A stretch of DNA of 64,000 bases, from contig OZ024752.1 in the NCBI GenBank assembly GCA_964016885.1, positions 10,664,001 through 10,728,000 on the forward strand. Reading direction: 5' to 3'. Origin of the DNA: Eledone cirrhosa. Lineage: Eukaryota. The notes under the pieces were generated by a model. The model saw only the letters and a list, made by a program, of their open reading frames with translations, made no database searches and was not told where the DNA came from. A program made the translations under genes and the position numbers. This document shows positions 5,340 to 40,430 of this stretch, one piece after another. Numbering within the stretch: position 1 is the first letter of the stretch; the number at the start of each line of letters is the position of its first letter.

Positions 5340-5636
5340 GTTATTAATATTAAAATACAAATATTAATAAAATAGATGTTCTTTTGACCAATTACATTTT
5401 ATTATAAAGATTTCGGATGTACATCCTCATCAGACAAAATATAATGATACATGACATACCCTGAGATGTTAAATGGTTACGATTTAATCACTACCTTGAT
5501 TAATAGTAACCATTTAACATCTCAGGGTGTCATGTATCATTATATTTTGTCTGATGGGGACGTACATCCGAAATATGTATAATAAAATGTAATTGGTCAA
5601 AAGAACAGCTTTTTTATTAATATTTGTATTTTAATA
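5340..5636. mobile_element. Head-to-head inverted PLE-type terminus with two hammerheads (family A)
   Basis: Arms of about 145 bp are reverse complements around about 5490. The right end runs into (TA)n. Confidence 0.8.
5391..5445 (-). ncRNA. Type I hammerhead ribozyme (family A, intact core)
   Basis: rc: attatattttgt-CTGATGA-GGATG ta CATCC-GAAAT cttt ATA-ataaaatgtaat. 12-bp helix I. The plus-strand partner at 5539-5592 has CTGATGG. Confidence 0.85.
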
Positions 5637-5733
5637 TATATATATATATATATATATTATATAGTAATAATAATAATAATAAATTTGAAGACTATAACTT
5701 TAATCTGTTATTTTAATAAATATATATATATAT

Positions 5734-6791: not shown

Positions 6792-7595
6792 GTACGAATG
6801 AAAAAATCCTGGTGTAAATACCACCATGATTTTTTCATTCTGATCACTGAAAGCAAATGTTGCTTGCTTTCAAGAAACCACTGGTAAATGAAATAATTAT
6901 CTTATGTTGTTTATTACATTACTAAATATATATATTACATATATATATATATATGTATATGTATGTATGTGTGTGTGCCTGTGTCTGATGGTAGGTATGA
7001 TGCTTCCATAGGCGGTATGTCGGTTGAGTACTGTATGTTCTTACTGAGCAGAGTGTGATATAATGTAAAACGAAAAATCAGTGAAGCATCTGAACTCAAT
7101 TTATTGTGTGTTACAATTGTTTCGTCGGACACGTGTGTGTAAGTGCGTGTGCGTGTCTATATATATGTCTGTACGTGTTTGTGTATAGCAGTCGATATAC
7201 GCGTATGCATGTGTGTGCGCATGTATGCGTGTGTTTGTGTGCCTATGTGTGTGTGTGAGAGCTGATGTACGTGGGCATGTAGGCAGGCGTCTGTGGATGC
7301 GTATGTTGTTATTTATGTGGTTGTGTGAGTGTGTGTGTGTCTATGTGTGTGTACATATATATATATACATGTATATGTGTGTGTGAGCGCGCGAGTGGAC
7401 TTGTGAAATACCAAACCCACCATGGATTCATTGAAGCGTGTCAGGCGGAGGGACAGGTTATGGCCAGTGTGACAGCAACTATTGGCCAGAATTTATGATG
7501 ACGTAGAAAAAGAACAGCCGACACCAGGACAAGTGAAGAAGATGTTTTCTGACGCTAACACCCCAGCGAGAAAATGTGATCCGAAATTATTGCAA

Positions 7596-7737
7596 GTGTC
7601 CGACGAACCTGCAGATCCAGAGTCAGACTGCTCGAGACACGATCATTGTATGGATCTGTCTGATGCTGGACCTGCATCAGACAGATCCACACAATGTTCC
7701 TGTCTCGAGCAGTCTGCCGGCGAAACAATTGTAACAC
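7596..7737 (+). ncRNA. Hammerhead-like RNA with U4C core and long hairpin in helix II (family I)
   Basis: gtgt-CCGACGA-acc...[near-perfect hairpin 7624-7716]...ggc-GAAAC aatt GTA-acac, followed by aataaa. Inverted partner of the terminus at about 7059-7133. Confidence 0.65.
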
Positions 7738-7780
7738 ACAATAAATCGAGTTCAGATGCATCACTGATTTTTCGTTTTAC

Positions 7781-7901
<121 letters not shown>

Positions 7902-8654: not shown

Positions 8655-9004
8655 TAATGACTTCATTTGTAGTGTTAAAAACATTTTAGATTTAATTTTA
8701 TAATATTATAATATTATGAGTTGGTAGATCCAGTAAGTTCTTTGTTAACGTCGGTGGGAAGAATTTTCAAGATTCCTCGTTAACTGGGGTTGGAGAACTT
8801 TCTCGTATTCGTCTGTCTGTGGCGATTTTCATCTCAGTTTGACAATCGCCGCAGACAGACGAATGCAAGAAAGTTCTCCAACCCAAGTTAACCAGGAATA
8901 TTTAAAATTCTTTCCACCGAAGTAAACAAAGAACTTACTTTACTGGATCTACCAATAATATTATAAAATTAAATCAAACATTTTTTAACACAAGTGAAGT
9001 CATT
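8655..9004. repeat. Fold-back inverted repeat (arms about 165 bp) abutting (TA)n
   Basis: ggttggagaactttc...tctgtctgtggcgatt / aatcgccgcagacagacg...gaaagttctccaacc. Confidence 0.85.
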
Positions 9005-27821: not shown

Positions 27822-28445
27822 CTAAGCTTCCGGTAGCTTCCAACCGACATGGTTGCATTCTTTAAGGGTATGTCAATATTTGTTTATAAAACTGATCTAT
27901 ATTATATTTTATCTCATGAAAACGCACCATAATTTGCTTTGGTGTACTTAAAATATGTATAATGAAATAAATATGGTTTTATAAATATAATTTCCATTTG
28001 TATTTTTACTCCAAAAATTTGTTGAGTGATTTATATCAGTTATAAAAATATTTGCTTGTTGTATCCCAACAAAATAAATATAACTTCTACATATATATAT
28101 ATATATATATACAATATATTCATAAATGGAAACTATATTTATAAAACCATAATTATTTTATTATATATTTTATTAACTATCCAGCCAAACTTCAACCGTC
28201 AAGGTTGTTTTTCTAAGGGTATGTCAACATTTATAAAACAAATTTATATTTTATCTGATGAAAGCGCACCAAAACTACCTTGGTTGCCCTTGAAATATAT
28301 ATAATAAAATAATTATGGTTTTATAAATATAGTTTCTATTTATTAATATATAGAATATTTACTCCAGTTTCTGTTGAGTGATTTATATCAGTTATAAAAC
28401 TTTTAGGCTTGTTGAATGCCAACAAATTAAATATAACTTCTGCAT
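27822..28445. mobile_element. Two adjacent family B PLE-type termini (27822-28090 plus; inverted pair 28112-28445)
   Basis: Homologous to 15350-15530. Hammerhead at about 28245-28318: CTGATGA-aagcgcacca...ttggttgccctt-GAAAT atat ATA-ataaaata. Confidence 0.72.
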
Positions 28446-34791: not shown

Positions 34792-34997
34792 TTATATATA
34801 TAAAGAATATATATATATATGTATATTTATATATATAAAGAATATATATACTTGTGTGTTTGTATATATGGAGAGAGTGTTCCAGAACAATGTTCCAAAA
34901 CAATTATTTATTAGAATGCTGTTGAAGTGGGTATACAATTTTGTATGATTTTTCAGCGGAATAGGAGGCTGATTATATGTACAAACATTATTAATAC

Positions 34998-35044
34998 TGC
35001 TCCGAACACTCCAAGCCTAGGCTTGGAAGAAACAATTGTCAGCA
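34998..35044 (+). ncRNA. Hammerhead-like motif, family J (U4C core)
   Basis: tgct-CCGAACA-c tccaagcc ta ggcttgga a-GAAAC aatt GTC-agca. Homologs at 39774-39820 (-, CCGAAGA) and 40102-40148 (+, CCGAAGT). Confidence 0.68.
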
Positions 35045-35238
35045 ATTAAATGTTCTAACATAGCTTTTATTCTTGTGTATTCTATATTACTGCTCTGTAT
35101 AACAAATGATGTTCTTACATTCAGCTATTTATCTTACTGGTAATAAGGTAGTAATAAATTACTGACCTTACCTGTTTATAGTTGTATATAGTATAGTATA
35201 TACATAACTATAAATAGTATCCTTAATATTATATACAC

Positions 35239-36059: not shown

Positions 36060-36516
36060 TATATGTATATATATATGTATATATGTGTGTGTGCGTGTGT
36101 GGGCGTGTGGGTATCTCTGTGTGTGTCTGTGTTAGGTGTATAGCTAGAGTTACAGGTGGCGCAATTTTGGAAGCCCTCAATGTCTTTACGAGGATCTCTC
36201 GTGTTGGGTGGTATTCGAGATTTAAGTAGACTTTAGTTGTGCATAGTGTAAATAAATAAACAGAATCGAAGTCAGTGTTGTGGCATATGTGCACACTTTA
36301 TTGGCATATTTCAAGTGTTCCAATATCGATTAGCTCAGTGTACAATCAAATTGCTGGGTCTCGATTCTTCTCCGACATCTCACACGAGATGCATGTTTAT
36401 ATGTGCGAAGACGCATCCAAACATTCGACGGAGGTCCAAGGATCCTTTATATAGTTTTATTAATAGGTGTCCAGGGGCGTGGAGAAGGGGTAGTAAGTGA
36501 GTAAATGAATATATGT

Positions 36517-39597: not shown

Positions 39598-40430
<833 letters not shown>

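What the first reader, a model, noticed from the sequence alone, without database searches (positions are those of the whole stretch)
7596..7737. Hammerhead carrying a 93-nt near-perfect hairpin as helix II, with a helix-II-less mirror copy
Seen: between CCGACGA and GAAAC lies cagactgctcgagaca..cattgt.tggatctgtctgatgc-loop-gcatcagacagatcca.acaatg..tgtctcgagcagtctg (about 38 bp paired, pre-miRNA-sized). The inverted partner at about 7105-7133 reads gtgtCCGACGAAACaattGTAacac, meaning the whole helix II was removed at the CGAA microhomology, which supports the alignment of the two core halves. Inference: a ribozyme with hairpin cargo that could be a Dicer/Drosha or ADAR substrate.
Basis: partly seen in the sequence, partly recalled or inferred. 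Interest (0 to 1): 0.75.

Follow-up and report, generated by a model that had tools for sequence, protein, structure and literature searches.

The report
Retroelement hammerhead with a one-off fold-back
This is one decayed copy of a common jumping gene whose end carries a predicted self-cutting hammerhead RNA with an unusually long arm; the striking hairpin is an inverted duplication seen only in this copy, likely a copying accident that is predicted to hinder the ribozyme rather than serve as its cargo.

Summary
The hairpin is real (40 of 43 bp paired, z -11.8) but private: 0 of 29 other top copies have it, and 320 genomic matches have a 40-70-nt spacer against this one hairpin-bearing match. 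It is a 53-nt inverted copy of the family's own helix II domain, with microhomology at its first junction. It is predicted to take away the basal helix II strand (pairing 0.002 against a family median of 0.75). The 'mirror copy' is the inverted, 5'-truncated arm usual for Penelope-like elements (PLEs). Its apparent helix I strand is also the first bases of the forward copy read backwards, so it gives no support for the core. The hammerhead itself is genuine at family level. It sits at the 3' end of a PLE with Hydra-clade protein motifs, and over 3,100 related motifs carry a canonical core, a palindromic helix III and a 55-62-nt helix II domain with compensatory changes. Published Hydra hammerheads have about 26 nt or less there. 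This copy's lineage has a U4C core. Cleavage and expression are untested.

The parts
7126..7787 (+). 5'-truncated 3' end of a high-copy Penelope-like retroelement (Hydra-clade motifs), ending in (TA)n
   Evidence: longer copies L032/L033 continue upstream into RT and GIY-YIG coding sequence
   Evidence: junction shares CGG(ACAC) with the start of the forward copy
7596..7599 (+). helix I, 5' strand (an extension 7587-7592 can pair with 7739-7744)
7600..7606 (+). hammerhead core first half, U4C variant (CCGACGA)
   Evidence: sequence; lineage-wide
7607..7721 (+). helix II domain: 61 nt in normal copies, 115 nt here
7624..7676 (-). private 53-nt inverted duplicate of positions 4-56 of the family helix II domain; net gain 54 nt
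7624..7716 (+). resulting hairpin, 40 of 43 bp, 7-nt loop
7722..7733 (+). GAAA, palindromic helix III (ACAATTGT) and GUA; predicted cut after 7733
   Evidence: sequence; self-duplex of two copies -8.4 kcal/mol; GUA sites and short palindromic stem III occur in published Hydra hammerheads
7734..7737 (+). helix I, 3' strand
43707..43810 (+). related long-helix-II hammerhead of a diverged subfamily with canonical core, in its own fold-back with 43577-43677
   Evidence: this copy was in the model's training set

Best explanation
The locus is a truncated, inverted-arm insertion of a Penelope-like retroelement whose 3' end carries a predicted type I hammerhead, and the 93-nt hairpin is an inverted duplication private to this copy, likely made by polymerase template switching and predicted to disable the local ribozyme fold. 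Shown: repeat membership, RT and GIY-YIG motifs upstream in longer copies, the 61-nt family helix II domain, the origin of the insert, its uniqueness among the copies examined. Inferred mechanism: the polymerase (the element's reverse transcriptase at insertion, or host replication soon after) copied up to CAGAC, switched to the opposite strand at the family's native CAGACAG...CTGTCTG inverted repeat, copied 53 nt backwards, and returned to the forward strand with 1-3 nt of homology. In intact family members the hammerhead would most likely cut slowly, as a dimer through the palindromic helix III, to process tandem element transcripts. In this lineage U4C and an A-C closing mismatch would slow it further. 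In this copy the hairpin, and in read-through RNA the 71-bp pairing with the inverted arm, would block the fold.
For: 0 of 29 other top-scoring copies carry the insert (40 of 1891 candidates were scored, 30 fetched including the window). Junction pattern: 3 hits, 1 exact (the window), 2 with two mismatches that are different fold-backs. Spacer 40-70 nt: 320 matches, control 0. Spacer 90-130 nt: 2 matches, the window and a direct tandem duplication. The insert matches the reverse complement of the family majority at 50 of 53 positions. The arms differ at 3 of 43, in line with ~5% mean divergence of 35 copies from the majority, so the event is about as old as the insertion and unlikely to be an assembly fold-back. 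Inverted partners are common in these families: 6 of 29 and 11 of 28 loci. In 12 of 15 inverted pairs (the window included) one arm ends at reference position 339 and the other at 415-420, the one-sided tail described for PLEs (PMC8557442 passages). Basal helix II pairing is 0.002 here against 0.79-0.88 in L061. Forcing the hammerhead frame costs 6.4 against 1.8 kcal/mol. Family fold: 84.6% of 913 cells paired, 18 of 30 pairs with double changes, 0 of 500 shuffles reach the covariation score, slid controls 27.5-40.6% paired.
Against: No cleavage or RNA data. RNAalifold found no consensus structure on the same 31-row alignment, and single sequences fold weakly (z -1.75 to +1.29 for nine family members). 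I wrote the tested structure myself from member folds and picked 31 of 110 distinct motif copies to span subfamilies, which favours it. Core columns were fixed by the search pattern. 9 of 37 normal copies also have basal pairing under 0.01, so loss of the fold is not special to the hairpin copy. The two arms share a change that is rare in the family (1 of 35) but differ at a site that varies between subfamilies, so one template versus two templates plus conversion is unresolved. Pfam support for RT and EN is below curated cut-offs; the clade call rests on motifs, not a tree.
Confidence: 0.88

Rival explanations
1. One reading: an active ribozyme carries a selected hairpin cargo that is released and processed by Drosha/Dicer or edited by ADAR.
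For: The hairpin is very stable and of pre-miRNA size; it scores weakly, as any long hairpin does, against miRNA models, all below threshold. The hammerhead frame can still be forced at a cost of 6.4 kcal/mol.
Against: Single copy. Arms diverged at the neutral rate. Core is U4C, reported to lower activity considerably in vitro (PMC3088659 passage). A type I cut after 7733 frees only one side of the hairpin. 9 such inverted repeats lie in the window.
Confidence: 0.04
2. The hairpin is private and accidental, but if transcribed (for example inside an intron) it is incidentally edited or diced like other repeat-derived double-stranded RNA, with no link to the ribozyme.
For: 40 of 43 bp duplex, plus a second 71-bp duplex in read-through RNA; repeat-derived hairpins are known dsRNA substrates (own knowledge).
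Against: No expression evidence was obtainable. This is compatible with the best explanation and adds no function.
Confidence: 0.2
3. The motif is not a hammerhead at all, only a chance match of short core words inside a repeat.
For: No Rfam hammerhead hit at gathering level in the window or at E up to 10 on one canonical-core member; RNAalifold blank.
Against: 3112 matches against 2 in the control for a canonical core with a 50-75-nt spacer. 96 of 110 distinct motif copies have 4 or more consecutive helix I pairs (the patterns fixed part of these bases). Double changes in 5 of 6 helix I pairs and 7 of 8 basal helix II pairs. Position and stem III style match Hydra PLE hammerheads.
Confidence: 0.05
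4. The inverted arm did arise by deletion of helix II between the near-direct repeats CCGACGAA and CCGGCGAA, followed by inversion at a 7-nt microhomology.
For: True helix II deletions exist: L042 and L165, 1 of 20 fetched loci. The window's forward copy has G, not A, at the variant site.
Against: A plain truncation plus one common substitution explains it with one junction, since the forward copy itself starts with CGGACAC. Either way it records DNA microhomology, not ribozyme geometry.
Confidence: 0.3

Closest known systems
Hammerheads of Hydra-clade Penelope-like elements (Craig et al. 2021, PMC8557442; passages, section 11, supplement parts 1-2 of 59 with Files S1 and S2 read; supplementary figures not read)
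   Same: C-terminal EN element with DKT, CxCX5C, CxxC and CxH motifs, (TA)n targets, hammerhead near the 3' end, short palindromic stem III, GUA among the cut sites, inverted 5'-truncated arms, one-sided tail.
   Different: Listed Hydra motifs have about 26 nt or less between the core halves; this family has 55-62 nt, with bulged stems and a conserved internal loop. This lineage has U4C. File S2 does list two spike-moss PLE-X motifs with ~50 nt there, so long helix II is not unprecedented.
Minimal and small-helix-III type I hammerheads of metazoan PLEs (Cervera and de la Pena 2014, PMC4209133; parts 1-2 of 4 read)
   Same: pLTR location, palindromic helix III implying dimer cleavage, pairs of motifs 100-700 bp apart on opposite strands, low activity in vitro.
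   Different: Helix II there is 6-8 bp. G10.1-C11.1 is conserved there but present in only 7 of 31 aligned rows here.
Short-range template-switch events (Walker et al. 2021, PMC7954356; passages read)
   Same: A two-switch event that inserts a reverse-complement copy of nearby sequence and creates a near-perfect hairpin.
   Different: Here it lies in a retroelement end and may have been made by the element's own reverse transcriptase.
PAc Poseidon element hammerhead (PMC11167929; passages and second part of main text read)
   Same: PLE hammerhead; catalytic mutants did not affect insertion in vitro, which fits the spread of a U4C lineage.
   Different: Different clade, ordinary stem II.

Membership tests
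Type I hammerhead ribozyme (family level) | CUGANGA and GAAA core with NUH cut site | tested here: met
   3112 genomic matches, control 2; GUA site
Type I hammerhead ribozyme (family level) | Helices I, II, III closing the core | tested here: met
   (hand-written structure, double changes in helices I and II); RNAalifold gave no structure; helix III columns were fixed by the pattern
Type I hammerhead ribozyme (this copy) | Canonical core | tested here: not met
   U4C; a known natural variant with lowered activity (PMC3088659 passage)
Type I hammerhead ribozyme (this copy) | Helix II closing on the core | tested here: not met
   predicted pairing 0.002 or less; A-C at 10.1-11.1
Type I hammerhead ribozyme | Self-cleavage at the predicted site | not testable with these tools
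   needs an assay
Hydra-clade PLE | RT with DKT in place of DKG, C-terminal GIY-YIG | tested here: met
   DKT and YRDD in L032, EN downstream; Pfam GIY-YIG E 0.0063, below cut-off; homologue P0001 has a weak RVT_1 hit
Hydra-clade PLE | CxCX5C linker; CxxC and CxH around the conserved E and N | tested here: met
   read directly in the L033 translation, compared with section 11 of PMC8557442
Hydra-clade PLE | N-terminal RWK motif | tested here: inconclusive
   copies fetched are truncated before it; two homologues show RWR
Hydra-clade PLE | (TA)n insertion and inverted 5'-truncated arms | tested here: met
Hydra-clade PLE | Placement in the RT phylogeny | not tested
   no tree built
pre-miRNA | Conserved or family-wide hairpin | tested here: not met
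   single copy; no Rfam family at threshold
pre-miRNA | Precise small-RNA duplex reads | not testable with these tools
   no small-RNA data available
Non-LTR retrozyme | Non-coding tandem monomers, each with a hammerhead | tested here: not met
   copies are dispersed or inverted pairs, and longer ones join an RT-EN frame

The most novel reading that the evidence does not exclude
A large radiation of Hydra-type retroelements has turned helix II of its hammerhead into a ~60-nt structured module with a conserved internal loop, kept by compensatory change across many subfamilies. One successful lineage keeps this module while carrying a weakened U4C core. The module would then be a protein-binding or regulatory element (for example for the element's own RT/EN), showing that the PLE hammerhead fold is kept for something besides fast cleavage.
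Probability: 0.3. Interest if true: 0.55.

Novelty: new variant of a known kind. Interest (0 to 1): 0.27.

Why it matters
The hairpin itself matters little: it is a one-off rearrangement in a decayed repeat. The family behind it matters modestly. Hammerheads with a 55-62-nt helix II domain fall outside the 7-17-nt spacer of a published core search (PMC8557442) and were missed by Rfam here, so such motifs are probably undercounted in animal genomes. What PLE hammerheads do is still open. A lineage that spread with U4C, next to sister lineages with canonical cores and the same long arm, offers a natural comparison to test whether cleavage or the fold is what is selected.

Tried and rejected
Rfam at gathering level on the window: 0 hits. 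Rfam by E-value on 4 loci: no hammerhead among the 150 of 217 rows shown; 0 rows on one narrow member; 18 sub-threshold miRNA/snoRNA rows and no hammerhead on 7570-7780. The ~100-codon open frame across the motif has no Pfam hit and is closed by a stop in the family majority: rejected as coding. DNA transposon with terminal inverted repeats: rejected, because the arms differ in length and longer copies carry RT and EN. Search for a different hammerhead in three element ends: no better candidate. Public runs: no RNA holder listed; laying 4 runs gave no piece spanning the junctions, so no verdict on presence in other individuals. Pattern scans of metagenome and viral contigs: 12 and 1 loci, 5 weak model hits of about 20 bits; the 4 shown as alignments are unrelated tandem repeats: no relatives found outside this genome, but no other animal genome could be searched. 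RNAalifold on the family alignment: no structure. The idea that inverted arms start preferentially at the base of helix II: 4 of 15 pairs start at reference positions 261-271 besides L042, which was selected for it; suggestive only. Lunse et al. on dimeric PLE hammerheads was not held, so I saw only its title in a reference list; it may describe relevant variants. Literature searches for a long-helix-II animal PLE hammerhead found none, within an open-access library.

Full report
Observation. The hairpin pairs 7624-7666 with 7674-7716 at 40 of 43 positions around a 7-nt loop, with z -11.83. No Rfam family reaches its threshold in the window.

It is a repeat copy. A search of the own genome with 7395-7785 gave 1891 first-look candidates, of which 40 were scored and 30 fetched, the window included. 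None of the 29 others has the hairpin; they are about 54 nt shorter at that place (one is deleted across the region and one is truncated after it). A core pattern with a 40-70-nt spacer has 320 matches, control 0. A similar pattern with a 90-130-nt spacer has 2: the window and a direct tandem duplication. The junction pattern has 1 exact match and 2 two-mismatch matches that are different fold-backs.

Origin of the hairpin. Window 7624-7676 matches the reverse complement of positions 4-56 of the family's 61-nt helix II domain at 50 of 53 positions. The first junction falls in CAGAC, shared by the forward strand and the native inverted repeat CAGACAG...CTGTCTG; the second has 1-3 nt of homology. 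This is the pattern of a short-range template switch (PMC7954356 passages). The arms differ at 3 of 43 and family copies differ from their majority by 5% on average (35 copies), so the event is roughly as old as the insertion. Whether one or two templates were used is unresolved: the arms share a change seen in 1 of 35 copies but differ at a site that varies between subfamilies.

Effect on the fold. In a normal copy the basal helix II pairs form with probability 0.79-0.88; here 0.002 or less, because the hairpin takes their 3' strand. Forcing helix I and basal helix II costs 6.4 kcal/mol here and 1.8 in L061. Across 37 normal copies the median is 0.75, though 9 of 37 are also under 0.01. In a read-through transcript the two element arms pair over about 71 bp and bury GAAAC, the cut site and the 3' strand of helix I. 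The window holds 9 non-simple inverted repeats with arms of 35 nt or more within 1 kb, so the hairpin is not rare as double-stranded RNA.

The mirror copy. The forward copy begins at 7126 inside the element's microsatellite-rich 3' region, where the family reads CGGACACGTG (6 of 10 copies with CGG, 8 of 10 with GG). The string CYGANGAAAC... occurs 154 times. In 19 of 20 fetched loci it is a variant of the 3' strand of helix II, and in 1 of 20 a real deletion; L042 is another real deletion. So truncation plus inversion is the simpler reading (about 70%) and deletion stays possible. Neither says anything about catalysis, and the arm lacks separate G8 and A9. Inverted partners occur at 6 of 29 and 11 of 28 family loci, and in 12 of 15 pairs one arm ends at reference position 339 and the other at 415-420, the one-sided tail known for PLEs.

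The element. [quoted passage not shown] These are the features given for the Hydra clade, as is (TA)n targeting (PMC8557442 section 11). Pfam hits are weak. 16 of 945 candidate proteins were homologous to the RT piece. No tree was built.

The family hammerhead. A canonical-core pattern with a 50-75-nt spacer has 3112 matches against 2 in the control, spread over many diverged subfamilies. Among 110 distinct motif copies in the fetched loci, 105 have a 55-62-nt spacer and 96 have 4 or more consecutive helix I pairs (the patterns fixed some of these bases). On 31 of these 110, chosen to span subfamilies, a structure I wrote from member folds has 84.6% of 913 cells paired and 18 of 30 pairs with double changes. 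0 of 500 shuffles reach its covariation score and slid controls give 27.5-40.6%. Against this, RNAalifold returned no structure and single copies fold weakly, as expected for decayed copies with bulged stems but still a limit. A model built on the alignment scores the window copy at 61 bits. Published Hydra hammerheads have about 26 nt or less between the core halves, with similar short palindromic stem III and GUA sites; two spike-moss PLE-X motifs have about 50 nt (File S2). The window's lineage has U4C in 46 of 50 motif rows. U4C is reported to lower activity in vitro but to be tolerated in a viroid (PMC3088659 passage), and hammerhead mutants did not affect insertion of a Poseidon element in vitro (PMC11167929).

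How it most likely works. In intact members the motif would cleave after GUA slowly and as a dimer through the palindromic helix III (self-duplex -8.4 kcal/mol; dimer model from PMC4209133), trimming tandem element transcripts. This is inferred, not shown. The window copy is most likely inert.

Earlier notes of this scan mention long stem II hammerheads in this genome. They agree with the family result but are unchecked notes; the Hydra comparison they suggested was tested here directly.

Verdict. Observation partly confirmed, cargo interpretation not supported, hammerhead identity supported at family level. New variant of a known kind for the family; the hairpin is an ordinary private rearrangement. 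Interest 0.27.

Noticed in passing
window 43541-43846: Fold-back pair of a sister subfamily with canonical core CTGAGGA, 7-bp helix I and the same 61-nt helix II domain; 2298 first-look candidates in the genome.
   Followed up: partly
window 51195-52850 (+) and 53431-53564: 551-aa open frame of a related PLE (RT 52% identical to L032, CxCX5C, GIY-YIG), followed by a degenerate core pair with a ~90-nt spacer; a short-stem hammerhead-like motif lies upstream at 50867-50934.
   Followed up: partly
window 36298-36398 (-), 28243-28315, 34990-35052, 39766-39828, 40094-40156, 49010-49077: Further matches to the family model: one decayed long-arm member (36.3 kb), one short-stem hammerhead-like motif (28.2 kb), others not inspected.
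   Followed up: no
window 49431-50705 (-): 424-aa open stretch that by recalled resemblance looks like the C-terminal part of a non-LTR retrotransposon protein with a restriction-like endonuclease; not scanned.
   Followed up: no
family alignment A1, columns 32-42 and 64-74: Sequence-conserved AGAGUC / GAGCUG internal loop in the middle of helix II across subfamilies about 30% diverged; a candidate tertiary or protein contact.
   Followed up: partly
L152, L160, L162, L164, L167: A further subfamily reads CCGTCGA or CTGTCGA (A6 changed to U), which suggests still more loss of the core in a spreading lineage.
   Followed up: no
L001, L045, L051, L072: Inverted arms start within reference positions 261-271, at the 3' base of helix II; possibly a reverse-transcriptase stall site, small sample.
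   Followed up: partly
window 5342-5642 and 8732-8939: Other long inverted repeats (115 nt at 93%, 100 nt at 89%) near the finding.
   Followed up: no
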